Positions 11,891-33,071 of a DNA stretch of 64,000 nucleotides are shown here, piece after piece; position 1 is the first letter of the stretch; each line of letters opens with the position of its first letter. A model generated the notes under the pieces. That model did no database searches and was not told the DNA's origin. It saw nothing but the letters and a program-made list of their open reading frames with translations. The position numbers were made by a program, and so were the translations under genes. This DNA comes from Candidatus Moraniibacteriota bacterium (GTDB taxonomy: Bacteria; Patescibacteriota; Minisyncoccia; Moranbacterales; UBA2206): positions 9,182 through 73,181 of the forward strand of contig DPJH01000036.1 of the NCBI GenBank assembly GCA_003543115.1, written 5' to 3'.

Positions 11891-13267
11891 TCAAGTAATC
11901 TTATATAACCTTTCCTTTATAAGGGTTATTTCTTCTATTAATTTATCATTATTTTTTAATTCTCTGGTTATTTTATTACAAGCATGAATAGTTGTTGTGT
12001 GGTCTCTTCCTCCTAATTTTTCTCCTATTCCCGGAAAAGAATATTCTAATTCGCTTCTCATAAGATACATCGCGATTTGTCGTGGCTTAACAACCTCTTT
12101 TTTTCTATTTTTAATAATCAGATCATTTGGGTTTATATCATAAAAAGACGAGACAATATTGATAATATGTTTATGGTTGATGCCTTTTTTCTTTCCACTG
12201 GTAATAAGTTCTGATAGAAGGGTTGAAACATATTCTAAAGAAGGCTCTTTTCCGCTTAATTGAGAGGAGACCATAACTCTATTAAAAGCTCCTTCAAGTT
12301 CACGAATATTATTAGTTATGTTTTCAGCTATAAAGCTTAATGTTTCACTGGGAATATTAAAATTTTCATCACGAGATTTCTTGCTTAATATAGCCATTCT
12401 TGTTTCAAAATCAGCTTTTGAAACATCAGCAATCATGCCTCCTTCAAAACGTGAACGCAATCTTTCTTCTAGGGTTGGAATAGCTTTTGGAGCTCTATCG
12501 CTGCTTAAAACAATTTGTTTGTTAAGTTGGTATAAATAATTAAAAATATGGAAAAATTCCTCCTGCGTTTTTTCTTTTCCAGATAAAAACTGAACGTCAT
12601 CTATAATCAAAAGATCTATTTTTTGATAATGCTCCTTGAAATCATTTACCTTTTGTGTTCTAATAGAATCTATAAGTTCACTTGTAAAGCGCTCTGAAGT
12701 TATATATTTTACTTTTCTAGAGGGATTTTTTTGTAATATTTCATTGCCAATAGATTGAAGAAGATGTGTTTTTCCAAGTCCCACGCCTCCGTAAATAAAC
12801 AAAGGATTGTAAATTCTGCCTAGATTTTGAGAAACAGCGTAACAAGCAGCCTTAGCAAGCTCATTGCTTGATCCGACTATAAAATTTTCAAAAGTATATT
12901 TAGGATTAAGATTATTTTCTTGGCTTATGGTAAGGGTTTTTTTAATGAGAGGCTTATTTAAGATAATTTTCTTTGGAGGTTGAATAGCATCCACCCTGTT
13001 CTCTGAAAAAGAAGTATCATCGCTTGTTTTTATAGAACAAACAACCTCTCGTATGTTGTTTTGGGTATTGCGGAGAGCTTTAAGAATATATAGATTATAT
13101 TTATTCTCCAGCCATTCTTTAGCAAATCCATTTGGAACGCCAATAACAACCCTTCCATTTTCACTGGAAAGGATAGAAGTGTTTTTAAACCACGTAATAA
13201 AATTAGCTTTCGAAATTGAAAGTTCTATTTCCCCCAAAGCAGCCCTCCAAAGCTCTTCATTAGTCAT
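11891..13267 (-). CDS. dnaA: chromosomal replication initiator DnaA
   Basis: Has the AAA+ Walker A GVGLGKTHL and the C-terminal DnaA-box binding domain (GGRDHTTTIHACNKI). Confidence 0.9.
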   Translation of the reverse strand: MTNEELWRAALGEIELSISKANFITWFKNTSILSSENGRVVIGVPNGFAKEWLENKYNLYILKALRNTQNNIREVVCSIKTSDDTSFSENRVDAIQPPKKIILNKPLIKKTLTISQENNLNPKYTFENFIVGSSNELAKAACYAVSQNLGRIYNPLFIYGGVGLGKTHLLQSIGNEILQKNPSRKVKYITSERFTSELIDSIRTQKVNDFKEHYQKIDLLIIDDVQFLSGKEKTQEEFFHIFNYLYQLNKQIVLSSDRAPKAIPTLEERLRSRFEGGMIADVSKADFETRMAILSKKSRDENFNIPSETLSFIAENITNNIRELEGAFNRVMVSSQLSGKEPSLEYVSTLLSELITSGKKKGINHKHIINIVSSFYDINPNDLIIKNRKKEVVKPRQIAMYLMRSELEYSFPGIGEKLGGRDHTTTIHACNKITRELKNNDKLIEEITLIKERLYKIT

Positions 13268-18495: not shown

Positions 18496-19764
18496 ATGTA
18501 TCAGTTTCTTCTTGTTATGGTTCTATATTTGCCATTTCAATTGGCCATTAATCCTTGGCCAGGCATTGACTTGGCTTCAATTAGAATTTTGATCCTTGTT
18601 TTGTTTTTTTGGTGGTTGGCGCTAGGTCTAAAAAATAGAAAAATAGAAATTAATGACAATATGCAGACTTTTTTTGTTGTTTCTTTTTTATTTTTAAACT
18701 TTCTATCTCTTATAGCTGCCAGAAATGTTGACTGGTCCATAAGGAAGCTCCTTTTTCTCTTTTCTGTTTTCCCTGTTTATTTTGTGGCCAGCCAGATAAT
18801 TATAAACAAAAAGAGGTTATTAAAATTCATTACTGTTATTGTTTTTGGCGCTGCAGCGGCATCGGTTGTTGGTATTTTCCAGTTCTTTTCTCAGTTTGTC
18901 TTTGGGTTTAAGGCGGTGTACTCTTTTTGGGCTAATTTTGTGGTGCTTCCCTTTTTGGGCAGCAGTTTTGGAGAAGCGGTCTTAAAAAATCCCAGCTGGC
19001 TGGTTAATGTTTCAGGCAAAACATATTTGCGCGCCACTTCTATTTTCCCAGACCCTCATATGTTTTCTTTTTATTTGGGCTTGGTTTTGCCGTTGGCTTG
19101 CGGGATGTTTTTGTATGAAAAAAAAAGAAAAGCTTTTTTTCTGGCAGCGGCAATAATTATTTTTTTGGCGGATATTTTTACTTTTTCTCGTGGCGGATAT
19201 CTAGGCTTGTTTGGAGGATTTATCTTCATAAGCATCTTTTTTTGGAACAAGATACAAAAAAAATACAAAATAACTACAGGACTCTTTTTAATAGCGGCTT
19301 TTCTGGTTATGCTGGTTCCTTCACCGATCTCTCAAAGATTTTTGTCTAGTTTTAATACCAAGGAGGGTTCCAATATGGGAAGGATATTGATGTGGGAAAA
19401 AGCGATCGAGGTAATAGCGGACAATCCCGTTTTGGGCGTGGGTATCGGCAACTATCCGCTAGAAGTAAGCGCTGTTTCCACATATCGAGATCCTATCTAT
19501 GCGCATAACACATATTTGGATATTGCCGCTGAGACAGGCCTTTTGAATGCAATAATTTGGATATCATTGCTTGCTATGACCATGGTTAGTTTTTGGAAAA
19601 AATTTAAACAAGAACCCATATTTTTCTTTGCTCTGCTCAGTATGATTGTTTTTTCAATCCACTCCTTAGTAGAAACGGCTGTTTATTCTCCGGCAGTATT
19701 GACGCTTTTTTTATTGATAATAAGTTTTTCCCAGACAAAAATAAGCAATGAAAGAAATATTTAA
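18496..19764 (+). CDS. O-antigen ligase / Wzy_C family membrane protein (polymerase or O-oligosaccharyltransferase)
   Basis: It is polytopic and has the Wzy_C motif GVGIGNYPL...YAHNTYLDIAAETGLLNAI. Confidence 0.65.
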   Translation: MYQFLLVMVLYLPFQLAINPWPGIDLASIRILILVLFFWWLALGLKNRKIEINDNMQTFFVVSFLFLNFLSLIAARNVDWSIRKLLFLFSVFPVYFVASQIIINKKRLLKFITVIVFGAAAASVVGIFQFFSQFVFGFKAVYSFWANFVVLPFLGSSFGEAVLKNPSWLVNVSGKTYLRATSIFPDPHMFSFYLGLVLPLACGMFLYEKKRKAFFLAAAIIIFLADIFTFSRGGYLGLFGGFIFISIFFWNKIQKKYKITTGLFLIAAFLVMLVPSPISQRFLSSFNTKEGSNMGRILMWEKAIEVIADNPVLGVGIGNYPLEVSAVSTYRDPIYAHNTYLDIAAETGLLNAIIWISLLAMTMVSFWKKFKQEPIFFFALLSMIVFSIHSLVETAVYSPAVLTLFLLIISFSQTKISNERNI

Positions 19765-20947
19765 TTTGAAAAACCTGGCTTACTTTACCATAATGGCAAT
19801 GCCATTATATATATTTAGATTTTCTATTTTAGGTGTGCCGACCAATGTTTTTGAAATATTGGCTATTGTTAGTATAAGTCTGTTTTTTATCCGTGTTGTG
19901 GGCTCCAAAATTAAGCTTGAAGGCTCTAAAACGTATCTTATGCCTATAATTATGGTATTGGCAGGATTGTTGATTTCCGCGCTCTATAATGACGCGCATC
20001 AAAGCGGCTTTGGCATAATAAAAAGCTGGTTTATAATACCTATTGTTTTTTCCTGGATTTCATTGCAGCTATCAGAAGACAGAAAAGATATTTTAAAGGC
20101 CATGCACGGTTCAGCTTTCTTGGTAGCTTGCTTGTCTTTGCTATATTTTATAGCAGGAGAAACAACTTTTGATGGGAGGTTGCAGGCTTTTTATAATTCT
20201 CCAAATTTTTTAGCGATGTTTCTCGCTCCATCTATCATGATTGGTGTTTTTTTATTGAAAGAGAATAAAAAGATTTATTCGATGACTCTCTCTGTGATGC
20301 TGGTTTCATTGTATTTGACTCAATCATACGCCTCTTGGATAGCTGTTTTCATAGCCATGATTCTTTTATTGTTTCTAAAAAAAGATTTATTAAAAAGGAA
20401 TTTTATATTAATCCTAATGCTCATTTTTATTCTATTCTTTTCCTTGCAAAAAGGAACAGACAAGCTTAATCGCTTTACTAATATGGAGGAAAGGTCTTCT
20501 GCGGCATCTCGAATGATGATTTGGTCATCAGCCATGAAAATAGGCTTGGATAATCCGGCAATAGGCATAGGGCCGGGTAATTTTCAGAATAAATACTTGG
20601 AATACCAAAAATATTTTCCGCCCTATCTTGAATGGGCGGTTCCTCAGCCGCACAATCTATTCTTAGCTTTTTGGCTGCAAGCAGGCGTTTTGGGGATTGT
20701 CGGTTTTTTATGGATTCTTTTTTTGTGGTTTAGGAAATTCATACAAAAAAATGAGAAGCAAAAAGAAGATTACATCTGTTTGGGAATAATAATTTATATC
20801 ATGGTTCACGGATTGTTTGATACGACCTATTTTAAAAATGATTTAGCTGTTATTTTTTGGCTTATAATTTTTTATTATGAAAAACATCTATCCCAAGGAG
20901 ATAGATGTGGAGAATATTTTAACAGGAAATGCAAAACTAAAGCCTGA
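19748..20947 (+). CDS. O-antigen ligase / Wzy_C family membrane protein (second paralog)
   Basis: Has the motif GIGPGNFQNKY...PHNLFLAFWLQAGVLGIVG and is polytopic. Confidence 0.65.
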   Translation: MKEIFNLKNLAYFTIMAMPLYIFRFSILGVPTNVFEILAIVSISLFFIRVVGSKIKLEGSKTYLMPIIMVLAGLLISALYNDAHQSGFGIIKSWFIIPIVFSWISLQLSEDRKDILKAMHGSAFLVACLSLLYFIAGETTFDGRLQAFYNSPNFLAMFLAPSIMIGVFLLKENKKIYSMTLSVMLVSLYLTQSYASWIAVFIAMILLLFLKKDLLKRNFILILMLIFILFFSLQKGTDKLNRFTNMEERSSAASRMMIWSSAMKIGLDNPAIGIGPGNFQNKYLEYQKYFPPYLEWAVPQPHNLFLAFWLQAGVLGIVGFLWILFLWFRKFIQKNEKQKEDYICLGIIIYIMVHGLFDTTYFKNDLAVIFWLIIFYYEKHLSQGDRCGEYFNRKCKTKA

Positions 20948-22088
20948 TCCTATATAGCTTATCATCAATTTTATTCACAAAAAACAGATAGCTCTCATTG
21001 TAGCTAAGAAATAGGCCGGTGGCATCGTAAGTTGTTTTAAGTTCTTCCAGCGGAACTACGCGGGTTTTTTCTCCGGTTTTCAAATTAACTTTCCAAAAAG
21101 TGTCGTTGGTGGTAAAGGAACTATCAAGATAGTCATTAGGTAAGATATTTTTTTCTGAAATAGATCCAGGCAAGGCACAGAATACGAAGCTATTGTTTTT
21201 TGACCAAACACATTTGGAAACGAAAGTGGGCAGTCCGATGTTTTTATATTCTCCGCCTAGGCTGTTGGCAAAGCCTAGTTCCATTTTATGCCCACCCTTT
21301 TGGTCTACATTGCTTCGCAAAAACATGGTTCCGTCGCTGTTCCACAAATAATCAGCGCCAAAAACTCCGGATGACAGTACTTTGGTTTCTCCTCCCATAA
21401 TAGGGGTGGACTGGAATAGTGTTTCGGAAAAGGAGTCAGGCTTATTCCAAAAAGAAATAAAACCTGATTTTGGAACAGGAGCTATGCTAATGCTGTCTGA
21501 GGAAAAGGTAGTAATTTTATTCCAATTTTCTCCATTGGGATCAGAAATATTGATGGATTTCTCTTTATTTTTATTGTCGAAGTAGGTATAAATAATTTTT
21601 TTATTGCTTTGCCATGAGACAGCGCCGATGCTTTCATTGAGCCGAGAGGCTTTTTTGGTCAGATAGTCGAAGAAAGAAAATTTCGGATATCCGGCGCCGC
21701 TCGAAAATTTTGAAATGACCATTCCCTGGTTAGGAGACCAATAAACATCAAGAAGACCGATCAGATTGGCATCAGAAACAACCTTTTTTTCTAAAGTCAA
21801 GAGATCCAATTGATAAACCTTTCCGCTGGATTTGGAATAATATTTCATAGATTCATCGTTGTCTGAGAGTATGGGTGAAATAACGGATTCGTCGGTGATT
21901 TTTTGGATGCGTTCTTCGTTGCCGACAATGCTTGTTTTTTCGACTTGGGCATCATCGGATTTTTTACTGACAACAGCTTCTTTTTCCGGAGAGGGTTTTT
22001 TGAAGGAAAAAATATAGATTCCCCAAAACAAAAGAGTAATCAAGAGGATAGAGGATGATGTAATGAATATTTTTTTTGAGAGAAGCAT
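20937..22088 (-). CDS. membrane-anchored TolB-like beta-propeller protein
   Basis: An N-terminal TM helix is followed by repeated WSPxxxxIxF-like blades (VYWSPNQGMVISKF, VSWQSNKKIIYTYF, LWNSDGTMFL, CVWSKNNSFVFCAL) resembling the WD40-like PF07676 repeat. Confidence 0.5.
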   Translation of the reverse strand: MLLSKKIFITSSSILLITLLFWGIYIFSFKKPSPEKEAVVSKKSDDAQVEKTSIVGNEERIQKITDESVISPILSDNDESMKYYSKSSGKVYQLDLLTLEKKVVSDANLIGLLDVYWSPNQGMVISKFSSGAGYPKFSFFDYLTKKASRLNESIGAVSWQSNKKIIYTYFDNKNKEKSINISDPNGENWNKITTFSSDSISIAPVPKSGFISFWNKPDSFSETLFQSTPIMGGETKVLSSGVFGADYLWNSDGTMFLRSNVDQKGGHKMELGFANSLGGEYKNIGLPTFVSKCVWSKNNSFVFCALPGSISEKNILPNDYLDSSFTTNDTFWKVNLKTGEKTRVVPLEELKTTYDATGLFLSYNESYLFFVNKIDDKLYRIRL

Positions 22089-22105
22089 TTTTTTGTATTT
22101 TAAGC

Positions 22106-23185
22106 TTATTTAGCCAAACATTGTTTTTGGTAGTTTTGAACTTTCTGGACATAGTCCCGGGTTTCTTTATATCCTTGCTTGTTGGGGTTGTTTTTATGGA
22201 CACCTTCTCCTTCCACGCTTCCGTCAGCAAAATAAGGGCATTGCCACGCCGGCATGCTTTCAGGATATCCTGCTCGCCCCTTGCAGGCTTGAGATTCGGC
22301 AAACGGGCCAAGTTTTCCTTCACCAGCCTTTGCTCCTCCTCCGCCATTATAGGATGCGATTAAATCGTCATTTCCTGTATAATAACTGCCTCCATCCGGG
22401 AAAGTTACTTTTTCTGTGCCAGGAGTTGTTTGTTTGCTGGTTGGGAATTTTGTATATGAATTAAGCTGGGATTGGTTTGATTTGAGAAGCTCAGCGGCCT
22501 TTTTGATGCTTTTTTCCGGATCGCTTAACTCCGATGCGCTCATACCGGCGGTATCAGGCTTGATTTGCATGAGTCCATAAGCTCCTTTATTGCTGCCTCC
22601 TACATTAGAATTGCATCCGCTTTCCTGCATGGCAATTCCCTTAAGAAGGCATTGGGTTTCTTTATCCGGAGCAGCTGAATTAAATTGTGAATCATATTTA
22701 TCGCATGCTGGAGAAAGAGATCCTAGTTTGACAGGAGTGCCGGTTGTCGGAGGGGTCTCACCAGGCTTAGTTGGTGTTGTTGGTGCTCCTCCTCCCGTTG
22801 CCGCTCCTCCGCCCTTGGTTCCGCAAATGCCATTTATTTGGGTGAGATCCGGATTGATTTCATACAGAATGAGATAGGAAAAAAAAGCGAGCAACAATCC
22901 TACGATAGCATCAAAAATCACTCCTTTGGCTTTTCCCATGCTGGCATTGTTTCCGGCTGACATGATATACATATAGCCTCCGATTATGATCATAAACATA
23001 GCGCAAATACCGATCACCCAAATCCCGAATTTGTAAACAGCAGAAATATAGTTGCAAAAATTTCCATCAGTCGTAACTCCCGGAATTTTTTCCATGGGAG
23101 TATAATCAAAAGAAGCTAAAACATCCAAAGCAGGCATTGCGATGAAGAGAAGAGCAAAAAAAGGAAGAAGAAATTTTTTAAGCAT
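22106..23185 (-). CDS. VirB1-like cell-wall hydrolase: VirB2/TrbC-like pilin-type membrane anchor fused to SLT lytic transglycosylase domain
   Basis: The N-terminal 130 aa comprise a signal peptide plus two hydrophobic helices separated by a short loop, which is TrbC/VirB2-like topology. A Gly/Pro/Thr linker follows. The C-terminus has the SLT motif AMQESGCNS...GAYGLMQI. Confidence 0.6.
   Translation of the reverse strand: MLKKFLLPFFALLFIAMPALDVLASFDYTPMEKIPGVTTDGNFCNYISAVYKFGIWVIGICAMFMIIIGGYMYIMSAGNNASMGKAKGVIFDAIVGLLLAFFSYLILYEINPDLTQINGICGTKGGGAATGGGAPTTPTKPGETPPTTGTPVKLGSLSPACDKYDSQFNSAAPDKETQCLLKGIAMQESGCNSNVGGSNKGAYGLMQIKPDTAGMSASELSDPEKSIKKAAELLKSNQSQLNSYTKFPTSKQTTPGTEKVTFPDGGSYYTGNDDLIASYNGGGGAKAGEGKLGPFAESQACKGRAGYPESMPAWQCPYFADGSVEGEGVHKNNPNKQGYKETRDYVQKVQNYQKQCLAK
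22789..23185. repeat. direct repeat copy A (~400 bp, 100% identical to 23933-24330)
   Basis: Direct comparison of the two stretches, covering the 5' ends of the two tandem paralogs, showed no mismatch. Confidence 0.85.
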
Positions 23186-23214
23186 AAAAACAGTGCGGTT
23201 AAAACATTTACATT

Positions 23215-24330
23215 TTATTTACAATTATAACATACATCCCAATGATTACCTTCTCTTGCATAAGTGTTTCCAGACGGATCTTTATATAAAGTTGCGCCAT
23301 CGCTACGTGTGCCAGTTTTTTTATAGTTTGTCTGGATATAGTTATTGACTACCGGAGTATCATCGATATCAATTTTATATCCATTCGCATGCGAATAATT
23401 TCCACTTGCGTGTGGGCTGCTTTCTGCTCCTCCGGTAATGACAATTGGTGCGCCAACTTCTTTTTGGAAAGCAATGATGCTGTTAATTGAAGTATCTTTG
23501 AGTCCGCTTATTTTAGTTGCGCCAGGACTTGATTCCCATACGCTGATTTGCCCGTTACTTCTATTTGTTAAATCAGTTCTTGAAGTTGTTTCCGAGGCTG
23601 GGGAGCTTTCAGGACAGGGCTCATTGGTTATAGGATTGCCCCCCTCACATCCATCGGGAGACCTAGAGGTTATGAGTCTTGAGTGTGTGGTGCTTCCGGG
23701 CGTGCACAATGTCCAGGGTGAATATTCAAATTCAGTGCAGGTGTTTCCATTATTGCAAGTCCTGCTGGTAGCTTCTGGTGCTTTGCCGGTGCACCCGATA
23801 GGCAGTCCGGTAGCGGTCCTTGTTTGAGTTTCACTGCCTGTACACTGATCCGGTTCCCAGGATGAATAAGTAAAAGCACTGCATTCCTTGCCTTCTCCAT
23901 AAGGCTTTTCTGTTTCAGTCTTTGTCGTCTCCTCTCCTCCCGTTGCCGCTCCTCCGCCCTTGGTTCCGCAAATGCCATTTATTTGGGTGAGATCCGGATT
24001 GATTTCATACAGAATGAGATAGGAAAAAAAAGCGAGCAACAATCCTACGATAGCATCAAAAATCACTCCTTTGGCTTTTCCCATGCTGGCATTGTTTCCG
24101 GCTGACATGATATACATATAGCCTCCGATTATGATCATAAACATAGCGCAAATACCGATCACCCAAATCCCGAATTTGTAAACAGCAGAAATATAGTTGC
24201 AAAAATTTCCATCAGTCGTAACTCCCGGAATTTTTTCCATGGGAGTATAATCAAAAGAAGCTAAAACATCCAAAGCAGGCATTGCGATGAAGAGAAGAGC
24301 AAAAAAAGGAAGAAGAAATTTTTTAAGCAT
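23215..24330 (-). CDS. paralog with identical pilin-like anchor fused to Cys-rich putative peptidoglycan peptidase (M15-like) domain
   Basis: The first roughly 131 codons are nucleotide-identical to 22106..23185. The C-terminal domain has SPHASGNYSHANGYKIDID and a late HWD, reminiscent of the Zn-peptidase M15 H-x-x-G-x-x-x-D / H arrangement; this is tentative. Confidence 0.45.
   Translation of the reverse strand: MLKKFLLPFFALLFIAMPALDVLASFDYTPMEKIPGVTTDGNFCNYISAVYKFGIWVIGICAMFMIIIGGYMYIMSAGNNASMGKAKGVIFDAIVGLLLAFFSYLILYEINPDLTQINGICGTKGGGAATGGEETTKTETEKPYGEGKECSAFTYSSWEPDQCTGSETQTRTATGLPIGCTGKAPEATSRTCNNGNTCTEFEYSPWTLCTPGSTTHSRLITSRSPDGCEGGNPITNEPCPESSPASETTSRTDLTNRSNGQISVWESSPGATKISGLKDTSINSIIAFQKEVGAPIVITGGAESSPHASGNYSHANGYKIDIDDTPVVNNYIQTNYKKTGTRSDGATLYKDPSGNTYAREGNHWDVCYNCK
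23933..24330. repeat. direct repeat copy B (~400 bp, 100% identical to 22789-23185)
   Basis: Same as copy A: the two stretches are identical by eye with no mismatch. Confidence 0.85.
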
Positions 24331-24338
24331 AAGTTTTT

Positions 24339-27167
24339 CTAATATTCTTTTCTTTCCGGAGAGATGCTGAGGATGAGGCTGCTTGAGAATATGATCAGAG
24401 CAAAGGTTACAATTATTTTAAAAAGGAAGCTTATATATCCAGGCAGGCCTGAGAAAAGGCTGGCTAAAATTTTATTTTCATCTTTTTTCTGATAAGTGAT
24501 TTTTTTCTCTCCATTTATATTATCCGATACTATTACTTTGATTGTTTTAACGATGTCATTTTCCGAAAGGTTTGATCTTGAGATGTTCCATTTGTCATAT
24601 AAGGCTTTTTTTGTGGCTTCGTCTTGTTTGTGCGAAGTGGTGCTAGTTATGGTATAGGAAGCTCCCAGTTGTTTGGTTACGGGAAGATTAAGCGTATTCC
24701 CTCCATCGCTTACGAACGCTTCAATGCTGGAGTTGTTAGTATTTATTATTTCCTCTCCATCTACAGTCCAAGTGGTTGTTCCAAGAGAAGCGGTATTGTT
24801 AGGCGCTTGTAATTTTACCGTAGAGCCTGCTACTGCTTGAAAGAAATCTTTGCTGTAATCATCCCATTGAAGACCTTTGTCCTTATCCACAAATTGTCCC
24901 ATAAGAACAGGCGAAAGATTATTGGGATCGGTAGATTTTATATTGGCAGTTGGCTCGGAGATTGAAAAAGAACGGGTAAGGGTGATTTTTTCGGCAGAAT
25001 CCTTGCCGGCAATATCTAATTTGAGCACATAAGCTTTTCCTATTTCCTCGGTAATAGGAAAATAAATAAGATTATTGTCAGAATTTTCAGGAGAGAGCCT
25101 TTCTCCGTCCAGTGTCCAAGAAAAATTAAATTTGGAAGGATTATATTGTTCAGTTGGAATTCTGGCGGAAATAATTTCATCCGGAGTAACGGGGCATATG
25201 AATTTTTCTGACTCAGCGGTGCATCTTTCTTTTTCTTCATGGGTTAATTTTCCGGTAGCGGCATCAGCCTTAGCGGAATGGACCTTAATTTCTCCTTTGG
25301 AATTTTGAACGGTTATGATCGTAGTTTCTAATCCTTCCTTGGTAACATCAGTTGAAGAATTTTCTTTGGTTTTCAGCGTGGCTCTGACATAAAAAGCACT
25401 GGCATTTTCTGAAATTCCTTTAGCGGCCAAAACCTCTTTCTTAATGGAATCCAGGGGAATGTTCAGTTCTCTCAGTCCGATTCCTTCGAGAGGAAAATTT
25501 CCTCCCAGATCGGTCTGGGTCAAAGAGCGCCAATTGGAAGAATCGGGAGATTCAGCGATAGCCAACTCCCATTTATAATAGGTAAAGCCGCTATCTTCAT
25601 TGTTGGTGGTGTTAGATCGAATGGCAACAGTATCTGAATTTGCTCCTCCGGTGGACGAATCATATTGGGGTTTTGAATTGCTGACAGACAGGTTGTTGTT
25701 TATTTTTTTATAATCCCTTCCAGCGGTTGGTTCAACAAAAGCATCGTCAAGAGATTCATTGATAGATTCTATGGTTGGTTTTTCCGGTTCCTCCTCCCCT
25801 TCTTCCAATTTAGTTTCTGAAGTTTTGCATTCTTGTCCTTCTTCGCCATTATCATCAAAATTAACGCAGACCTCGCAACCTTCGGGATAACTTTTGTCTA
25901 TAAGAATGACTAGATTGGAAGATTCTTCAGCTTTCCATTTGAAAGCAGGGTTGGACTCTTCATATTTTCCAGGTATTCCGGGATTAGCAAATGCTTTGGT
26001 GGTGTTTTCCGAAGAACAGGATATTTGAACGTTGCAATCTCCATCTTTTCCTCCGCAATACGCATCACCTTTTTTATTAAAATGGAAATACCAGTCTCCA
26101 TTTTCTTTTCCATTTCCCATGGTTTTTATAATATCCGGGTTGTTGGAAATAGCCCACATAGTCTTGAAGGAAGAGTCTTTGGTTGAGGTCGAGCCGGTGG
26201 AAATTCCTTCCACTGCCACTCCTATTTTGTCGCCGGGAGAATAGATCCATTTGAATTCCATTTTTCCAAGGCCGGCTACGCTGGCTTCATCCATCACTCC
26301 GCTGCTGGAAGTATCATTGGAATTGGGATCGGTTCTCCAAAAAGATTCTTCTTTGGCTCCGAAATGTCCATCGCCCACTTTCTCATCTTTGAGTCCCGGA
26401 AAAGAGCTGACATCGGGAAAAAGATGTTCACAGCTTTCCATTTCAATGTCCTCTCCCGTCTCTACGTTACGGGCAAAACAATAACTGTTTTTTCCTACCT
26501 GGTCATCTCCTCCGAAAACAGCCAAATATTCGTCGGAATCGTTATTGTTGCCAGATTCACCTTCATATTGATTGGGCAAGGAACAGTGATCAGGCGGATA
26601 TTCGCTTGTACAGTTCGGATCATCTTTGCCAAGAATTTTTTGCCATTCAAAATTCCCCGAAGCGATGATTCGCATAGCTTCAATTTTATAGTCTTCTATA
26701 TCCGTTTCCCCGTCTTTGTTATAATCGCATGATCCGGGCTCTTCTTCGCAACGAGCTCGTTTTAGGAACCATGTAAAATACATATCATTGGGCTTGTTGC
26801 GAAAAAGGGACGTTTCAGCTATAGCGGTCAATTCTTTTCCGGGAATCGGATTGGTCGGAACGAATTGTACATTTACTTGCGGAGCATCTGTTTTGTAACT
26901 CATGTAATTTACTTGGGAAGTCGCCTTTAGAAGCTCTTCTTTTTCCATGCCGAAATCTTCCAAAATCTGAGTGATAATTTTTTTAACACCTGGATCAGCT
27001 TTGATCAATCCGGCAGAGGAAAAAATTCCCGCTTGTCCAAAAATAGAACTGAGAACGTCTCCTTCGGAAGTGTCTGAAGAATCAGCTTTGGATATAAAAG
27101 GAATATTAAGGCCGAGAATTAACGACAAAATCAAGATAAAACAGGATGTCTTTTGAAAAAAATGCAT
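24339..27167 (-). CDS. large (942 aa) Cys-rich secreted/surface protein with C-terminal TM anchor
   Basis: Has an N-terminal signal peptide (MHFFQKTSCFILILSLILGLNIPFISKA), many Cys, Asp/Glu/Asn/Ser-rich stretches, and a C-terminal hydrophobic anchor (IIVTFALIIFSSSLILSI). It is embedded in the T4SS-like operon. Confidence 0.5.
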   Translation of the reverse strand: MHFFQKTSCFILILSLILGLNIPFISKADSSDTSEGDVLSSIFGQAGIFSSAGLIKADPGVKKIITQILEDFGMEKEELLKATSQVNYMSYKTDAPQVNVQFVPTNPIPGKELTAIAETSLFRNKPNDMYFTWFLKRARCEEEPGSCDYNKDGETDIEDYKIEAMRIIASGNFEWQKILGKDDPNCTSEYPPDHCSLPNQYEGESGNNNDSDEYLAVFGGDDQVGKNSYCFARNVETGEDIEMESCEHLFPDVSSFPGLKDEKVGDGHFGAKEESFWRTDPNSNDTSSSGVMDEASVAGLGKMEFKWIYSPGDKIGVAVEGISTGSTSTKDSSFKTMWAISNNPDIIKTMGNGKENGDWYFHFNKKGDAYCGGKDGDCNVQISCSSENTTKAFANPGIPGKYEESNPAFKWKAEESSNLVILIDKSYPEGCEVCVNFDDNGEEGQECKTSETKLEEGEEEPEKPTIESINESLDDAFVEPTAGRDYKKINNNLSVSNSKPQYDSSTGGANSDTVAIRSNTTNNEDSGFTYYKWELAIAESPDSSNWRSLTQTDLGGNFPLEGIGLRELNIPLDSIKKEVLAAKGISENASAFYVRATLKTKENSSTDVTKEGLETTIITVQNSKGEIKVHSAKADAATGKLTHEEKERCTAESEKFICPVTPDEIISARIPTEQYNPSKFNFSWTLDGERLSPENSDNNLIYFPITEEIGKAYVLKLDIAGKDSAEKITLTRSFSISEPTANIKSTDPNNLSPVLMGQFVDKDKGLQWDDYSKDFFQAVAGSTVKLQAPNNTASLGTTTWTVDGEEIINTNNSSIEAFVSDGGNTLNLPVTKQLGASYTITSTTSHKQDEATKKALYDKWNISRSNLSENDIVKTIKVIVSDNINGEKKITYQKKDENKILASLFSGLPGYISFLFKIIVTFALIIFSSSLILSISPERKEY

Positions 27168-27183
27168 AAAATTTAAAAAATAA

Positions 27184-27843
27184 TTACCTTACTAATTCTA
27201 TAATATAAAGGTCTAAAAACAAAATAAAAACAATCCCGGAAAAACAGGAGAAAAGAAACGAACGGCTGTAATAGGAGGCTATTCCTCCGGTTAGGGAAAA
27301 AATAATAAGAGGCGTATATTGCCAGGTCAGTTTTTCGATGAAAAATAGAAAAGAGATGAAGAGAATAAATTGGAAAAAGGGAGCCCAAAAGCCAAATTTT
27401 TTTTCTAAGGTTGTTTGCAAGAAACCGTGAAAAAAAAAGCTTAGAACAAACAAAATAATTCCGATAACGATCAATTCATAAAAAACAAATGCCCAAAAGT
27501 GATTAATGATAAAAATCGGCACTACATATTTTTCTTCTAAATTAAAAAAATAAAAAAGAATAACAGCAATAAAAAAAGAAAACAAGAGCATCAGAGAGGC
27601 CCCAAAAATACCTTTTTTTCTTTCAGAAAAATTTAATCCAAAATCACATAGGTTTTTTTGCAGCACTAGTTTGATAAATAAAGCTGGAAGAAGGACCAGG
27701 AAAAAAGCGATGCGAGAGATGAGTTGCAAGGCGCCCTTAGCAGGAAATGAGATTGCCAAAAATAGGCACGCAAAAGCCACTAGGAAGGTGATTATTTCCC
27801 TTTTCCAATTATGGAGAAAATTAAATATTTTTTGCATATCCAT
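27184..27843 (-). CDS. polytopic membrane protein (possible CPBP/Abi-like)
   Basis: It has about 6 TM helices and lies within the T4SS-like operon. Confidence 0.35.
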   Translation of the reverse strand: MDMQKIFNFLHNWKREIITFLVAFACLFLAISFPAKGALQLISRIAFFLVLLPALFIKLVLQKNLCDFGLNFSERKKGIFGASLMLLFSFFIAVILFYFFNLEEKYVVPIFIINHFWAFVFYELIVIGIILFVLSFFFHGFLQTTLEKKFGFWAPFFQFILFISFLFFIEKLTWQYTPLIIFSLTGGIASYYSRSFLFSCFSGIVFILFLDLYIIELVR

Positions 27844-27871
27844 ACTAAATTTTTTTAGAATTTTTCTGCAG

Positions 27872-28363: not shown

Positions 28364-28386
28364 ACTGATTATATGTTAATCATTTT

Positions 28387-30213
28387 TTATTCTCCTTCAT
28401 TATCAAAATCCTTCTTGGCTTGCTCAATTTCAAGCATTTGAGCCGGATCAGTTGTAATAACCTGATCTTCGCCATAAGAAGCTACGACTTTGATAGCTAC
28501 ATGTTTTGTTCCGGCAAAGAAAATTCCTTCACCCACATTGCTTTCAAGAAGAAGGAATTTCTCCTGATCGGTCAGATAAAATGTTTCCGATATGACATCA
28601 ATGGCTGCTGGAGATTGTTTGAGCAAGAGCTGGATAGATGAATTGGTAACGATCGGTTTTCCATAGCGGGAAGAAAGAAAATCATTCACGTCTTGAGTGA
28701 TGGTAGTGAGTCCAGTATAATATTTCCTGCATCTTTTTGCAATTCCAAAAAGGAAAGAAGCGGCATCATCATATTTCATCATTACCCAGGCTTCGTCTAC
28801 AAGAACAATTCTTTTTCGTACGTTGGCTCGCATTTCATTCCAGATGAAATGAAGCACGATATACATGGCGATAGGGCGCAATTCATCTTCCATATCACGA
28901 ATATTGAAAACCACTAATTTATTATCAGCAATAATATTGGTTGGATTGTTGAGAAATCCGGCAAAGATACCATCGGTATATTTTTCCAGCCGAATAGCTA
29001 AATCCTCTCCCCCATCCATGTTGCGCAAAACTTGGTAGAGATCGGTGATTGTCGGGTAAGCTTCTTTGGGAATGGAATTAAAAGGAGTTTGGGCATTAAT
29101 ATCCCGGATAGCATAGGTTTCATGGATGGCTCTGTCAAGAATAGAATCTTCTTCCGGCGTAATATTTCCCAGCATAAGATGAAGAAGGCCTAAAAGGTTG
29201 GCAATGTTGTTTCGCAAAATATCAGCCGGATCCTCGTCATCCGAAATTTTTGGCAAATCAAACGGATTGAGGTGATTGTGGGAATTAAGGGATATTTTCA
29301 GAAAAGACCCCTGGACGGTGTCGCAAAGATGCCTATATTCATTTTCTGGGTCAATAATAATAACATCCGTTCCAATCATCAAAGAGCGCAGAACTTCCAG
29401 TTTTATGGTATAGCTTTTTCCAGCTCCGGATTTGGCAAAAACCACCATATTGCCATTTTCCATTTTGAAGCGATCAAAAAGAATGAGACTGTTATTGTGC
29501 CTATTGATGCCATAAAGAATGCCCTCATCATTGGAAAGCGTGGAAGAGACAAAAGGAAAAGTGGTGGAGAGAGGAGCGGAATTCATGTTGGTGCCGATAT
29601 TAATTTCATCATTGGCAAGCGGTATGGTTGAATTGAATCCTTGCTCTGTTCGGAATATGGCAGGCTTGGTATAAACCAATTGTGCTTCCAGAATAGACTC
29701 GATGCTTCTGGCTGATTTTTCCAATTCTTCTTCACTTGCTCCGTAAACAGTTATATATAAGCCGAAACGAAAGAACTTTTCCGTTCCTTGTTGCAGCTTG
29801 TCTCTCAGTTCTTCAATGTCATTGATAGCGGTTTCCAGAGCTGGGTCGCGAATCATCCCACTTTCTTCTTCAATATGGATCTGAGATTGCACTTGTGTGG
29901 AGCTTCTGCGAAGATTTTTAAGGATATCATAAGTGTCGATGGGATGCACGAACATGGAAATATCCATAGGCATGTCTATGTTTATGATCGGAGAGAACCA
30001 GTTGCTGTGAAGATATCGAGGATAGGAAATTACGAAAATTGTTCGAGCAAAAGTCTCTCCCATGCGGATTGATTTGGGAGTTATTTTAATAGAAGCAGGC
30101 GCTATGATATCTTGCAGCTTGGCTATTCCTTCTTGATAATATTTTTCTGAAGCAAGGATCTCATCTCTTTCTTCAGGCTTCATGGCGCTTTTTTTATTAA
30201 AAAAATCGAACAT
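28387..30213 (-). CDS. VirB4/TrbE/CagE-family type IV secretion ATPase, ATPase portion
   Basis: Walker A is VVFAKSGAGKSYTIK and Walker B-like is RKRIVLVDEAW. At 608 aa it lacks the usual roughly 200-aa N-domain, which is encoded by the upstream ORF. Confidence 0.75.
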   Translation of the reverse strand: MFDFFNKKSAMKPEERDEILASEKYYQEGIAKLQDIIAPASIKITPKSIRMGETFARTIFVISYPRYLHSNWFSPIINIDMPMDISMFVHPIDTYDILKNLRRSSTQVQSQIHIEEESGMIRDPALETAINDIEELRDKLQQGTEKFFRFGLYITVYGASEEELEKSARSIESILEAQLVYTKPAIFRTEQGFNSTIPLANDEINIGTNMNSAPLSTTFPFVSSTLSNDEGILYGINRHNNSLILFDRFKMENGNMVVFAKSGAGKSYTIKLEVLRSLMIGTDVIIIDPENEYRHLCDTVQGSFLKISLNSHNHLNPFDLPKISDDEDPADILRNNIANLLGLLHLMLGNITPEEDSILDRAIHETYAIRDINAQTPFNSIPKEAYPTITDLYQVLRNMDGGEDLAIRLEKYTDGIFAGFLNNPTNIIADNKLVVFNIRDMEDELRPIAMYIVLHFIWNEMRANVRKRIVLVDEAWVMMKYDDAASFLFGIAKRCRKYYTGLTTITQDVNDFLSSRYGKPIVTNSSIQLLLKQSPAAIDVISETFYLTDQEKFLLLESNVGEGIFFAGTKHVAIKVVASYGEDQVITTDPAQMLEIEQAKKDFDNEGE

Positions 30214-30239
30214 AAGGTATGAATTTTATAATTTTTTAA

Positions 30240-30926
30240 TTATTGTATTTCCAGATTATTTACATCCCCGATTTCTGGATTGGTAAATAAGTTAGGGTTA
30301 TAGGAATTATATAGCAGCTCAACTATTTCTTGTGTTTTGAGCGGAGTGAGGCGGAGTCCGATGCCGGAAAGAGACGCGGTGATATGATCCAGTCTTTGGA
30401 AAAGCTGATTTTTATATGTTTCAAAATGCTCTCTTTTTGCCTGGATACTTTTTCGGGGATTAAAATGGTCCATCATATTGCCTAAAAAACCCTTACCCTC
30501 ATTTTCTACCGGGGAAAACGGAACAACAATGTAGAAATTCTTATCCATAATATTGGAAACAGAAACTAATTGCTGGATAAAATTTTGGTATTCCGAAATT
30601 TGAAATTTCAGAAGATCGTTTTTCTGTTGGCGTGATTTTTTCTCAATGAAATCAAGATAATCGGAAATATTGAGCTTTCTGGAGCTTATGACGATTTGAA
30701 CCGGAAAATCAAGGGAATTGAGAAAAGCTTGATATTGCATTATTATAGCATCTTGTTCCTCGGTTGATTTAAGATCAAAATTAATGGCAGAAACAGCCAT
30801 TATGGCTCTCATTGAGCCATTTTTTAGAATAATAACATCTTCTTTCACTTCAGCTACGTCTAAAAATATTTGGGTGGCTGAAGCGTTATTTTGGCCGGAT
30901 AGTTTGTTTGAATGTAAAATTTCCAT
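30240..30926 (-). CDS. VirB4 N-terminal domain encoded as separate ORF
   Basis: ILKNGSMRAIMAVSAINFDLKSTEEQDAIIMQYQAFLNSLDFPVQIVI matches the conserved start of Gram-positive-type VirB4 proteins (PINFxLKSxxEQ...Y..FLxSL.FP.Q). It lies 26 nt upstream of the ATPase ORF, in a different frame. Confidence 0.55.
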   Translation of the reverse strand: MEILHSNKLSGQNNASATQIFLDVAEVKEDVIILKNGSMRAIMAVSAINFDLKSTEEQDAIIMQYQAFLNSLDFPVQIVISSRKLNISDYLDFIEKKSRQQKNDLLKFQISEYQNFIQQLVSVSNIMDKNFYIVVPFSPVENEGKGFLGNMMDHFNPRKSIQAKREHFETYKNQLFQRLDHITASLSGIGLRLTPLKTQEIVELLYNSYNPNLFTNPEIGDVNNLEIQ

Positions 30927-31330
30927 TATTTTTTCTTTATTTCTAGCAATTGGGATACTTTTTTAATTTCTTCAAGGCTGATTTCTTTGTTAGTGTGAAC
31001 GGATGACTTTTCATTGATTATTTTTGTGTGTTTGAATAAGTTTTTGGTGTCTGGCATTCTTCTCCACATATATATTTTTGGCTTGGAGAAAAATATGAAT
31101 ATTGATCCTAGAGCGGATATAAGAGGTTGTCCATTGGGCCGATAGAAAGCCAGTCCTCCAAAAATAAAAGCTACAAAAAAAGTTGACACAACAAAGGCTG
31201 CCAAATCAAGAACGCTCCAAAGTAAAAGAAGACACACTCCTCCTGCTGCCAGCCATCCTAATTGTTTGGCGGTCAAAGGGCCGACGATCTTATCTTCGAT
31301 ATCAATAAATTGTGGGATGTTGAATATCAT
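30926..31330 (-). CDS. VirB3-like small membrane protein
   Basis: A 134-aa protein with two TM helices immediately upstream of VirB4, overlapping it by 1 nt. This is the typical VirB3/ConD-type position and topology. Confidence 0.4.
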   Translation of the reverse strand: MIFNIPQFIDIEDKIVGPLTAKQLGWLAAGGVCLLLLWSVLDLAAFVVSTFFVAFIFGGLAFYRPNGQPLISALGSIFIFFSKPKIYMWRRMPDTKNLFKHTKIINEKSSVHTNKEISLEEIKKVSQLLEIKKK

Positions 31331-31348
31331 GGAATTAATTTTTGAATT

Positions 31349-32635: not shown

Positions 32636-32655
32636 TTTATATAATATTTTAAATT

Positions 32656-33054: not shown

Positions 33055-33071
33055 GTTTTTAAGTAAAATAA

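What the first reader, a model, noticed from the sequence alone, without database searches (positions are those of the whole stretch)
22106..24330. Tandem paralogs: identical VirB2/TrbC-like pilin-type anchor fused to two different cell-wall hydrolase domains, with a ~400-bp 100% identical direct repeat
Both genes begin with the same 131 codons, which are nucleotide-identical across 22789-23185 and 23933-24330. These codons encode a signal peptide plus two hydrophobic helices with TrbC/VirB2-like pilin topology, then a Gly/Thr linker. One gene continues into an SLT lytic transglycosylase (ESG...GLMQI); the other continues into a Cys-rich domain with peptidase-M15-like His/Asp spacing. Together they would mimic the bifunctional muramidase + peptidase hydrolases (CwlT/VirB1-type) of Gram-positive T4SSs, but as two separately anchored proteins. 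Perfect identity over 400 bp implies very recent duplication or ongoing gene conversion, and it is an assembly-collapse hazard.
Basis: seen in the sequence. Interest (0 to 1): 0.65.

Follow-up and report, generated by a model that had tools for sequence, protein, structure and literature searches.

The report
Pilin-fused cell-wall hydrolase gene pair
Two neighbouring genes in the secretion-machine (T4SS) cluster of an ultra-small "Moranbacteria" bacterium share an identical pilin-like front half and carry two different wall-cutting enzymes, and relatives show that this fused design is widespread but apparently undescribed.

Summary
An exact 399-nt direct repeat (22789-23187 = 23934-24332) covers codons 1-132 of two adjacent minus-strand genes.

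**Shared module.** It has a signal peptide and a two-helix hairpin of the Patescibacterial T4SS_pilin family (PF18895). It sits in the slot of a dnaA-proximal virB4/prgI cluster where a relative has one plain 148-aa pilin.

**Cargo.**
- Gene 1 carries an SLT lytic transglycosylase.
- Gene 2 carries two 4-Cys repeats and an unannotated domain. This domain folds as a Hedgehog/DD-peptidase (LAS, M15-like) zinc peptidase, with invariant H-x6-D and E-x-x-H-W-D.

**Recurrence.** The same pair occurs in at least five other assemblies. Its pilin modules are 85-96% identical in DNA there, with pN/pS near 0, and paralogs are more alike than orthologs. That indicates gene conversion plus purifying selection, not an assembly artefact.

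Among the 145 closest pilin representatives, 124 are 200-450 aa long. Their cargo includes SLT, SLT_3, NlpC/P60, VanY/M15 and C39.

**Best reading.** The T4SS pilin module delivers glycan- and peptide-cutting enzymes to the point where the machine or pilus crosses peptidoglycan. This would be a split, pilin-borne VirB1 equivalent. Whether it targets the cell's own wall or the host's is unresolved.

It is a new variant of a known kind.

The parts
22106..23185 (-). Gene 1: pilin module - Gly/Thr/Pro linker - SLT lytic transglycosylase - Cys-containing C-terminal extension (359 aa)
   Evidence: ORF. PF01464 SLT E=2.1e-12 over aa 178-286; PF18895 at 18.2 bits.
23215..24330 (-). Gene 2: pilin module - linker - two 4-Cys repeats - LAS-fold (M15-like) putative zinc peptidase (371 aa). 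Identical to NCBI protein DIC35_03315, Candidatus Moranbacteria MAG.
22789..23187 (.). Direct repeat copy A (399 nt, exact): codons 1-132 of gene 1 plus 2 nt upstream
23934..24332 (.). Direct repeat copy B (399 nt, exact): codons 1-132 of gene 2 plus 2 nt upstream
23114..23185 (-). Signal peptide of gene 1 (aa 1-24, ...ALDVLA|SF)
   Evidence: Sequence; AF2 helix 3-24. The cleavage site is inferred.
24259..24330 (-). Signal peptide of gene 2 (aa 1-24)
   Evidence: Identical sequence to gene 1.
22856..23059 (-). Pilin helical hairpin of gene 1 (aa 43-110; helix 1, SAGN loop with Lys residues, helix 2, ending ...YEINPDL)
   Evidence: AF2 helices 43-75 and 80-110, pLDDT about 90. PF18895 match over aa 47-107.
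24001..24204 (-). Pilin helical hairpin of gene 2 (aa 43-110)
   Evidence: Same as gene 1.
22706..22825 (-). Gly/Thr/Pro-rich linker of gene 1 (aa 121-160). The repeat boundary lies inside it.
   Evidence: Sequence; identity break at 22789.
22328..22654 (-). SLT catalytic domain (aa 178-286): E188-S189, G204-LMQ, S278-YNGG
   Evidence: motif positions
22109..22327 (-). C-terminal extension of gene 1 (aa 287-359, ...PAWQCP...YVQKVQNYQKQCLAK), conserved in orthologues
   Evidence: Alignment with the L006 and L010 orthologues.
23755..23883 (-). 4-Cys repeat 1 of gene 2 (aa 150-192, CSAFTYSSWEPDQC...GC.G..P......C)
   Evidence: Sequence. The same module occurs in P0022 and P0026, and in the SLT partner in L020 and L034. 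No Pfam hit.
23614..23739 (-). 4-Cys repeat 2 of gene 2 (aa 198-239)
23218..23583 (-). LAS-fold domain of gene 2 (aa 250-371). Invariant E303, S313, H314, D321, R342, D344, E360, H363, W364, D365; H307 is conserved in >=90% of homologues.
24339..27167 (-). Context: conserved 942-aa protein immediately upstream of the pilin slot (function unknown)
   Evidence: Synteny in L001, L005, L007-L009, L011, L012.
20937..22088 (-). Context: conserved 383-aa protein immediately downstream of the pilin slot (function unknown)
28387..30213 (-). Context: VirB4-type ATPase of the cluster
   Evidence: PF19044 TraG P-loop E=8.8e-29, AAA_10, CagE_TrbE_VirB.
30926..31330 (-). Context: PrgI/VirB3-like protein
   Evidence: PF12666 E=4.1e-9.
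11891..13267 (-). Context: dnaA. The T4SS cluster lies about 8-24 kb from it.
   Evidence: PF00308 / PF08299 / PF11638.

Best explanation
These are two pilin-borne peptidoglycan hydrolases of the chromosomal, origin-proximal T4SS of a Patescibacterium (Ca. Moranbacteria).

**Shown.**
- Each protein starts with the same 132 residues: a Sec signal peptide, then a VirB2-like two-helix hairpin of the T4SS_pilin family.
- This module is the positional counterpart of the cluster's own pilin.
- After a flexible linker, gene 1 carries an SLT lytic transglycosylase (a glycan-strand cutter).
- Gene 2 carries two small disulfide-type repeats and a Hedgehog/DD-peptidase (LAS) fold domain with a complete, invariant metal-site-like motif set (a putative peptide-stem cutter).

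**Inferred mechanism.**
1. After Sec export and signal-peptide cleavage, the hairpin sits in the membrane with both ends outside, so the enzyme domain is extracytoplasmic on a tether.
2. Because the module is a pilin, the VirB4-driven machine recognises it like any pilin. It then keeps or incorporates it at the assembly site or pilus.
3. This places a glycan-cutting and a peptide-cutting activity exactly where the T4SS or pilus has to pass through peptidoglycan.
4. Together the two proteins would supply the function that single bifunctional VirB1-type enzymes (PrgK, TraG of pIP501, CwlT) supply in other monoderm T4SSs.

Both enzymes must dock into the same machinery. Their pilin modules are therefore kept the same by gene conversion between the tandem copies and by strong purifying selection. 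The linker-coding DNA acts as the recombination boundary that lets cargo domains be swapped.
For: **Repeat, ORFs and domains.**
- Repeat and ORFs.
- SLT.
- Invariant H-x6-D and E-x-x-H-W-D across 129 homologues.
- hhalign probability 93.6% to pilin-fused domains with the canonical SxHYxGxAxD...HxH motif, with the motifs in register. Those domains weakly hit HH_signal and Peptidase_M15_3.

**Pilin module.**
- AF2 hairpin.
- PF18895 hits in 15 of 22 and 108 of 145 relatives.
- No other pilin in the 64-kb window.
- Syntenic slot series: plain pilin in L001-4, pilin-SLT in L007-9, and two fusions here.
- Co-occurring Cys pair flanking the hairpin: 8 with both, 1 with one only, 112 with none. This fits both ends lying on the same, outer side.

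**Context.** virB4, prgI and dnaA are nearby, matching the published Patescibacterial T4SS layout (PMC12102498). No other hydrolase was found in the cluster.

**Generality.** 124 of the 145 nearest pilin representatives are 200-450 aa long. Cargo includes SLT (19), SLT_3 (18), NlpC/P60 (6), VanY (2), C39-like (2) and destabilase (1). Thirteen have a canonical M15 motif.

**Concerted evolution.**
- Pairs in L006, L013, L010, L020 and L034 have pilin modules 85-96% identical in DNA.
- pS is 0.18-0.36 and pN is 0-0.045, with 18:0 and 14:0 synonymous:non-synonymous differences in L034 and L020.
- Paralogs are more alike than orthologs between the sister genomes L006 and L013.
Against: - No experiment exists for any PF18895 protein forming a filament. 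'Pilin' is itself a prediction, as PMC12857230 and PMC10633639 state.
- The window proteins score below the Pfam gathering threshold for PF18895.
- Enzyme activity, substrate, topology and localisation are all inferred.
- The rest of the genome is not visible, so a plain pilin or another VirB1-like enzyme could be encoded elsewhere.
- Homologues of the LAS domain fused to WXG100 hint at an effector role aimed at other cells rather than a housekeeping role.
Confidence: 0.6

Rival explanations
1. Host-directed, pilus-displayed enzymes. The fused pilins polymerise into, or cap, the T4SS filament, so the hydrolases decorate its surface. They would then digest the cell wall of the bacterial host that the epibiont attaches to, for penetration or nutrient release, rather than the producer's own wall.
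For: - The cargo repertoire is diverse and looks exchangeable, like that of polymorphic effectors: SLT, SLT_3, NlpC/P60, VanY/M15, C39, destabilase and an S8 protease.
- The LAS domain also occurs fused to WXG100 type VII secretion targeting domains and as small secreted Streptomyces proteins.
- In array-type loci the two fused pilins precede 5-7 plain pilins that are only 25-30% identical. This resembles the arrangement of minor/tip pilins plus a major pilin.
- The T4SS and its pilins are essential for epibiotic growth in S. epibionticum (PMC10633639, PMC12857230).
- My own recollection, not checked here: in F-type pili the pilin termini face outward, and C-terminal extensions can be displayed.
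Against: - No filament has been demonstrated.
- No immunity-like gene is evident next to the pair.
- In the virB4-slot loci (window, L007-9) no plain pilin is nearby to form the shaft. A filament made only of 36-40-kDa subunits is sterically demanding.
- The SLT-plus-peptidase pairing is exactly what monoderm T4SS assembly needs for the producer's own wall.
Confidence: 0.25
2. Cleavable pro-pilins. The fusions are precursors, and a protease cuts in or near the linker. Cleavage would release an ordinary mature pilin for assembly together with a free, stoichiometrically co-produced hydrolase at the assembly site.
For: - The pilin slot of the cluster holds only fused genes here and in L007-9, yet a pilin is presumably still needed.
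- The linkers are long and low-complexity.
- My own recollection: TrbC and VirB2 pilins undergo C-terminal processing.
- A few relatives carry C39-like or S8 protease domains on pilins.
Against: - No conserved cleavage motif is visible after the conserved NPDL end of the hairpin.
- No protease gene was detected in the window cluster.
- No experimental data exist.
Confidence: 0.15
3. Generic membrane anchor. The N-module has lost any pilin function and merely tethers two housekeeping wall hydrolases to the membrane. On this reading the identity of the two copies only reflects a very recent duplication.
For: - Many Gram-positive VirB1-like and housekeeping hydrolases use a simple N-terminal TM anchor (my own recollection).
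- The window module scores below threshold for PF18895.
Against: - The module keeps all family-conserved pilin residues.
- It evolves with pN/pS near 0 between paralogs that have accumulated 18-36% synonymous differences. That is far more constraint than a plain anchor needs.
- It occupies the pilin slot of the virB4 operon.
- Paralogs are more alike than orthologs in sister genomes.
Confidence: 0.1
4. Assembly artefact. Only one gene exists, or the two copies are less similar, and the MAG assembler duplicated or homogenised the repeat.
For: - A 399-nt exact repeat is longer than typical short reads.
- Only one contig in the protein collection carries this exact protein.
- Bubble-merging in assembly can erase small differences between copies.
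Against: - Each copy continues into a different, intact, full-length ORF with orthologues elsewhere.
- The same tandem pair with near-identical pilin modules occurs in at least five independent assemblies from different studies.
- L005, a close relative, shows the second gene starting with the same signal peptide, 100 of 102 nt identical.
Confidence: 0.04

Closest known systems
VirB1-type bifunctional peptidoglycan hydrolases of monoderm conjugative T4SSs (PrgK of pCF10, TraG of pIP501, CwlT of ICEBs1, TcpG)
   Same: They are encoded inside a virB4-containing T4SS cluster and are extracytoplasmic and membrane-tethered. They combine a glycan-strand-cleaving domain (SLT/muramidase) with a peptide-cleaving domain. 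The presumed role is local wall opening for the machine, as summarised in PMC12102498.
   Different: The two activities are split over two genes. The peptidase is a LAS/M15-like metalloenzyme, not CHAP or NlpC/P60. The anchor is a VirB2-like pilin hairpin rather than a simple TM segment. tblastn of gene 1 found no match in 72,556 plasmids.
VirB2/TrbC-like pilins of Patescibacteria (Pfam PF18895 T4SS_pilin), including the essential pilin array of Southlakia epibionticum
   Same: Same sequence family by profile hits in relatives. Same signal peptide plus two-helix hairpin. Same linkage to virB4/prgI near dnaA (PMC12102498).
   Different: Published arrays consist of short, divergent pilins: mean 25% and maximum 54% identity within an array (PMC12102498). 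Here the pilin module is fused to about 230-aa enzyme cargo, and the two copies are 100% identical.
LAS / Hedgehog-DD-peptidase fold metallopeptidases (MEROPS M15 VanX/VanY/LdcB, MepA, phage L-Ala-D-Glu endolysins, Hedgehog N-domain)
   Same: Same fold. H-x6-D first motif, and an acidic residue three positions before the C-terminal His (E-x-x-H, as recalled for VanX/VanY). There is a profile-profile link to domains with the canonical SxHxxGxAxD...HxH motif.
   Different: No hit to any Pfam M15 model. It has SHANGYK-x-D instead of SxHxxGxAxD, and HWD instead of HxH. It forms its own large unannotated family of more than 2,400 clusters.
Minor pilins with bulky C-terminal domains in type IV pili / T2SS (e.g. 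TcpB, CofB)
   Same: The design principle is a pilin module that docks into the filament machinery, carrying an extra functional domain. This is an analogy from my own recollection.
   Different: It is an unrelated pilin fold and an unrelated machine (type IV pilus, not T4SS). No enzymatic wall-hydrolase cargo is known to me in those systems.
Polymorphic effector architecture (LXG/WXG100, Rhs, CDI): constant N-terminal trafficking module plus variable C-terminal domain
   Same: A constant N-module with exchangeable C-terminal cargo, and recombination boundaries in linkers. The same LAS domain is found on WXG100 modules.
   Different: The trafficking module is a membrane-inserted pilin hairpin. 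No adjacent immunity gene was recognised. So far the cargo consists mainly of wall hydrolases and peptidases rather than cytotoxic enzymes.

Membership tests
Pfam PF18895 T4SS_pilin (VirB2-like pilins of Patescibacteria) | Score above the family's gathering threshold (26.6 bits) | tested here: not met
   The window N-module scores 18.2-20.1 bits, E = 7e-4 to 3e-3. Transitively, 15 of 22 close homologues (best 3.3e-6) and 108 of 145 nearest representatives (best 2.9e-71) do hit the model. A profile built from the module finds 68,361 proteins.
Pfam PF18895 T4SS_pilin (VirB2-like pilins of Patescibacteria) | Signal peptide followed by two long hydrophobic helices joined by a short, positively charged loop | tested here: met
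   AF2 helices 3-24, 43-75 and 80-110; loop SAGNNASMGKAKG; pLDDT about 90 in the hairpin.
Pfam PF18895 T4SS_pilin (VirB2-like pilins of Patescibacteria) | Encoded with virB4/virB3-type T4SS genes | tested here: met
   VirB4 at 28387-30213 and PrgI at 30926-31330 on the same strand. A syntenic slot holds a plain pilin in L001.
Pfam PF18895 T4SS_pilin (VirB2-like pilins of Patescibacteria) | Polymerises into a T4SS pilus | not testable with these tools
SLT / family-1 lytic transglycosylase (PF01464, GH23) | HMM score above threshold | tested here: met
   47.1 bits against a 21.3 cut-off, E=2.1e-12, aa 178-286 of gene 1.
SLT / family-1 lytic transglycosylase (PF01464, GH23) | Catalytic Glu-Ser motif with downstream GLMQ and AYNxG-type motifs | tested here: met
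   E188-S189, G204-LMQ, S278-YNGG read directly from the translation. The motif definitions are from my own recollection.
Peptidase M15 / LAS (Hedgehog/DD-peptidase fold) zinc peptidases | Match to a Pfam M15 family model (VanY, Peptidase_M15_2/3/4) | tested here: not met
   There were no Pfam hits at all at E<=10 for the C-region, none in NCBIfam, and none among PDB sequences with a profile.
Peptidase M15 / LAS (Hedgehog/DD-peptidase fold) zinc peptidases | Hedgehog/DD-peptidase fold | tested here: met
Peptidase M15 / LAS (Hedgehog/DD-peptidase fold) zinc peptidases | Metal-site motifs H-x(3-6)-D and a C-terminal His motif (HxH or ExxH) | tested here: inconclusive
   H314-x6-D321 and E360-x-x-H363-W-D365 are invariant in 129 homologues. 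They align with the H, D and HxH of canonical domains in hhalign (probability 93.6%). The second His of HxH is replaced by Asp, so the third metal ligand cannot be assigned. Metal binding is untested.
VirB1-like bifunctional hydrolases of monoderm T4SS (PrgK/TraG/CwlT type) | Glycosidase and peptidase domains in one polypeptide, with the peptidase of CHAP/NlpC-P60 type | tested here: not met
   The two activities lie on two separate ORFs, and the peptidase is LAS-type. Some relatives of the pilin subfamily do carry NlpC/P60 (6 of 145).
VirB1-like bifunctional hydrolases of monoderm T4SS (PrgK/TraG/CwlT type) | Encoded in the T4SS operon and required for T4SS function | tested here: inconclusive
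   The operon location is met. The functional requirement cannot be tested here.

The most novel reading that the evidence does not exclude
In this large branch of Patescibacteria the T4SS filament would be an enzyme-carrying organelle. VirB2-type pilin subunits bearing interchangeable wall-degrading domains would be polymerised, or placed at the tip. The pilus would then work as a 'drill' that opens the host bacterium's cell wall. The identical pilin modules would be maintained because every cargo-bearing subunit has to fit the same helical lattice. This would give the essential but functionally unexplained Patescibacterial T4SS a concrete mechanism.
Probability: 0.22. Interest if true: 0.85.

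Novelty: new variant of a known kind. Interest (0 to 1): 0.62.

Why it matters
The T4SS and its VirB2-like pilins are near-universal in Patescibacteria. They sit next to the replication origin and are essential for epibiotic growth in the one species tested (PMC10633639, PMC12102498, PMC12857230). What the machine does is unknown, and surveys report that most genomes lack a recognisable VirB1 hydrolase.

This locus and its relatives show that in one pilin subfamily the hydrolase is built into the pilin gene itself. The cargo is modular, and the pilin modules are kept identical between paralogs. This has four consequences:

1. It explains part of the 'missing VirB1'.
2. It links pilin and wall breaching physically.
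3. It defines a large unannotated LAS-type peptidase family that is also used by type VII secretion substrates.
4. It gives directly testable constructs: catalytic mutants, module swaps and filament proteomics.

It also flags a practical issue. The 399-nt repeats can collapse in assemblies, and recombination between them can generate the single pilin-SLT state seen in relatives.

Tried and rejected
- **Sequence searches on the gene-2 C-region.** Pfam at E<=10, NCBIfam, and a profile search of PDB sequences gave nothing. The function therefore rests on fold and motifs.
- **AFDB50 fold search.** The library was unavailable.
- **tblastn of gene 1 against 72,556 plasmids.** No match. There is therefore no close conjugative-plasmid VirB1 relative.
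- **Promoter and terminator scan of 20800-37300.** Counts were close to shuffled expectation: 50 against 39.9±5.6 for promoters, and 20 against 17.3±4.6 for terminators. It was not informative. The genes are tightly packed, with 8-nt and 29-nt gaps, and look co-transcribed.
- **Thrombospondin-type-1 reading of the 4-Cys repeats.** I considered it on the basis of the W..C...R pattern. There is no Pfam support, so they are left as unclassified disulfide modules.
- **Repeat as a mobile-element end or a phase-variation cassette.** Nothing supports a mobile element. Deletion by recombination between the repeats remains a plausible, untested consequence.
- **Literature searches.** I searched for pilin-hydrolase fusions, PF18895/PF18896, and Patescibacteria + pilin + lytic transglycosylase + fused. 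No description was found in the held library.
Full report
**1. Observation**

The window has two adjacent minus-strand ORFs: 22106-23185 (359 aa) and 23215-24330 (371 aa). The repeat finder reports a 100% direct repeat at spacing 1145 nt. Base-by-base extension gives an exact 399-nt match, 22789-23187 = 23934-24332. Identity drops to background within 20 nt on both sides.

The repeat covers codons 1-132 of both genes plus only 2 nt upstream of each ATG. The upstream regions, an 8-nt and a 29-nt intergenic gap, are unrelated.

**2. Organism and context**

- Gene 2 is identical to a hypothetical protein of a Candidatus Moranbacteria MAG (DIC35_03315, 105.5-kb contig). The window GC content is 36%.
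- The genes sit at the distal end of a co-directional block that contains a VirB4-type ATPase (28387-30213) and a PrgI/VirB3-like protein (30926-31330).
- dnaA and dnaN lie at 11891-13267 and 10464-11618.
- This is the origin-proximal, relaxase-less, MPF-FATA-related T4SS described for Patescibacteria. That system typically has VirB2-like pilin genes next to virB4 (PMC12102498). Its pilins and core genes are essential for epibiotic growth of Southlakia epibionticum (PMC10633639; reviewed in PMC12857230).

**3. The shared N-module**

- It hits Pfam T4SS_pilin (PF18895) only below threshold, at 18-20 bits against 26.6. However, 15 of 22 close homologues hit the model, as do 108 of the 145 nearest 50%-cluster representatives.
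- A profile of the module retrieves 68,361 proteins at E<=1e-3.
- AlphaFold2 gives a signal-peptide helix (3-24) and a hairpin of two long helices (43-75, 80-110). They are joined by the loop SAGNNASMGKAKG, with pLDDT about 90.
- A Cys before helix 1 and a Cys just after helix 2 are either both present or both absent in relatives: 8 with both, 1 with one only, 112 with neither. This suggests a disulfide and so places both ends on the same, extracytoplasmic side. This is an inference, and the counts are not phylogenetically independent.
- No other pilin of this kind is encoded in the 64-kb window.

**4. Synteny**

The slot lies between a conserved protein of about 940 aa and a conserved protein of about 380 aa, followed by two Wzy-like genes. 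Across relatives it holds:

| Locus | Content of the slot |
|---|---|
| L001-L004 | one plain 148-aa pilin (59% identical over 91 aligned residues) |
| L007-L009 | a single pilin-SLT fusion |
| L012 | a pilin-SLT-like fusion plus a second pilin |
| L011 | a pilin with another Cys-rich cargo |
| L005 and this window | two fused genes |

The N-module is therefore the positional counterpart of the cluster's own pilin.

**5. Cargo of gene 1**

- PF01464 SLT, E=2.1e-12, aa 178-286.
- It has E188-S189, GLMQ (204-207) and SYNGG (278-282).
- It also has a conserved Cys-containing C-terminal extension shared with orthologues.

**6. Cargo of gene 2**

- After the linker come two repeats of about 42 aa with four Cys each (aa 150-192 and 198-239). 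They have no Pfam match.
- The last 122 aa have no Pfam, NCBIfam or PDB-sequence match. They nevertheless define a large family: 2,477 clusters at E<=1e-3. It includes small secreted Streptomyces proteins of about 165 aa and fusions to WXG100 type VII secretion domains.
- With a 129-sequence alignment, AF2 gives pLDDT 93.4 and pTM 0.86.
- The Foldseek top 30 are all Hedgehog N-domains, although the E-values are weak.
- Invariant residues are E303, S313, H314, D321, R342, D344, E360, H363, W364 and D365; H307 is conserved in at least 90% of homologues. Together they give H-x6-D and E-x-x-H-W-D.
- A profile-profile comparison was run against pilin-fused domains that carry the canonical SxHYxGxAxD...HxH signature. 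Some of those domains weakly hit HH_signal and Peptidase_M15_3. The comparison gives 93.6% probability, E=2e-7, with the motifs in register.

The domain is therefore a divergent LAS-type putative zinc peptidase. It is not a member of any existing Pfam M15 family, and the third metal ligand (H363 or D365) cannot be assigned.

**7. The design is general**

- Of the 145 nearest representatives of this pilin subtype, 124 are 200-450 aa long and only 4 are under 200 aa.
- Their cargo includes SLT (19), SLT_3 (18), NlpC/P60 (6), VanY (2), C39-like (2) and destabilase (1).
- Thirteen carry a canonical M15 motif and two carry the SHANGYK type.
- In a metagenome scan, 39 of 71 SHANGYK-type loci are pilin-fused.
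- I found no paper describing pilin-hydrolase fusions. PMC12102498 reports pilin arrays with at most 54% identity and says that most genomes with VirB2 lack a recognisable VirB1.

**8. The pair and its concerted evolution**

The same two-gene module, pilin-LAS plus pilin-SLT, occurs in other Moraniibacteriota. There it carries a different pilin subtype and lies next to arrays of 5-7 plain pilins.

| Locus | Pilin modules, DNA identity |
|---|---|
| L006 | 92.7% |
| L013 | 94.3% |
| L010 (gene order reversed) | 84.8% |
| L020 | 95.5% |
| L034 | 95.8% |

- The adjacent plain pilins are only 25-30% identical.
- In L005 the second gene starts with 100 of 102 nt identical to the first gene.
- Between paralogs, pS is 0.18-0.36 but pN is 0-0.045. 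L034 has 18 synonymous and 0 non-synonymous differences, and L020 has 14 and 0.
- Between the sister genomes L006 and L013, paralogs (93.6% and 95.6%) are more alike than orthologs (92.3% and 90.9%).
- Cargo and pilin histories disagree. The window's SLT cargo is closer to L010 (49%), which has a different pilin subtype, than to the syntenic L007 (40%). The 4-Cys repeats sit on the LAS partner in some genomes and on the SLT partner in others.

Together this indicates three things: episodic gene conversion whose tracts end in the linker, purifying selection that keeps both pilin modules the same, and cargo shuffling at the linker. The window, with pS = 0, is the most recently homogenised case. 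Alternatively, its identity may be slightly exaggerated by the assembler.

**9. Mechanism (inferred)**

1. Sec export and signal-peptide cleavage leave a hairpin with both ends outside the membrane. The enzyme is then tethered outside the cell.
2. The pilin module makes the protein a client of the VirB4-driven pilin-handling machinery.
3. A glycan cutter and a peptide cutter are thereby concentrated where the T4SS or pilus must cross peptidoglycan.
4. This functionally replaces the bifunctional VirB1-type enzymes of other monoderm T4SSs.

I rate this reading at about 0.6. The rivals are:

- display on the filament to attack the host wall (0.25; the most novel reading);
- cleavable pro-pilins (0.15);
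- a mere membrane anchor (0.1; this is disfavoured by pN/pS near 0 and by synteny);
- an assembly artefact (0.04).

One direct consequence follows from the sequence. Recombination between the 399-nt repeats would delete 1,145 nt and leave exactly one pilin-SLT gene, which is the state seen in L007-L009.

**10. Verdict**

The locus is a new variant of known kinds (T4SS pilin plus VirB1-type hydrolases). It is one instance of a widespread fusion design that I could not find described. It includes a large unannotated LAS-type domain family and shows clear concerted evolution of the pilin module. Interest is moderate to high, because it offers a testable handle on what the essential Patescibacterial T4SS does.

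Noticed in passing
L013:2429-4918 (Ca. Moraniibacteriota MAG JAVEXR010000012.1): An 829-aa ORF combines a subtilase (Peptidase_S8, E=6.7e-19), a Ser/Thr/Gly linker, the pilin module and SLT. It would be a triple fusion with cargo on both outward-facing ends of the pilin hairpin. The true start codon was not verified.
   Followed up: partly
Proteins P0039-P0044, P0047, P0068, P0078, P0097, P0132: The SHANGYK-type LAS domain of gene 2 also occurs fused to WXG100/ESAT-6 type VII secretion targeting domains (about 253 aa) and as small secreted Streptomyces proteins of about 165 aa. It is a large family (more than 2,400 clusters) with no Pfam model.
   Followed up: partly
Proteins P0151-P0154, P0164, P0184, P0235; L006:14822-15493; L014:3563-4489: Some relatives contain 2-7 pilin hairpin modules in a single polypeptide of 200-900 aa. 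P0151 has several pilin modules plus SLT.
   Followed up: no
window 23614-23883; L020:1068-2105; L034:3385-4707: The 4-Cys repeat of about 42 aa (C..F.YS.W...C ... R ... GC.G..P.....C) sits on the LAS partner in the window, L006 and L013. It sits on the SLT partner in L020 and L034, so it behaves as a mobile spacer module. It has no Pfam match.
   Followed up: partly
window 35972-37003 (-): A 343-aa protein at the proximal end of the T4SS block carries bacterial thrombospondin type-3 (calcium-binding) repeats (PF18884, E=4.8e-15).
   Followed up: no
window 18496-19764 and 19748-20947 (+): Two adjacent, overlapping Wzy_C (O-antigen ligase/polymerase-like) paralogs converge on the T4SS block. 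They are preceded by a flippase and two GT2 glycosyltransferases. The same arrangement is conserved next to the T4SS in relatives (L001, L007-L009, L012).
   Followed up: partly
window 39795-40775 (-): A separate wall-related protein with DUF348, G5 and a DPBB (RlpA-like lytic transglycosylase) domain lies about 3 kb beyond the T4SS block.
   Followed up: no
L005:4331-5035: In the closest relative, the first gene of the pair ends after the two 4-Cys repeats (234 aa) and lacks the LAS domain. This could be a truncated allele or a different cargo state. The contig ends 100 nt into the second gene.
   Followed up: partly
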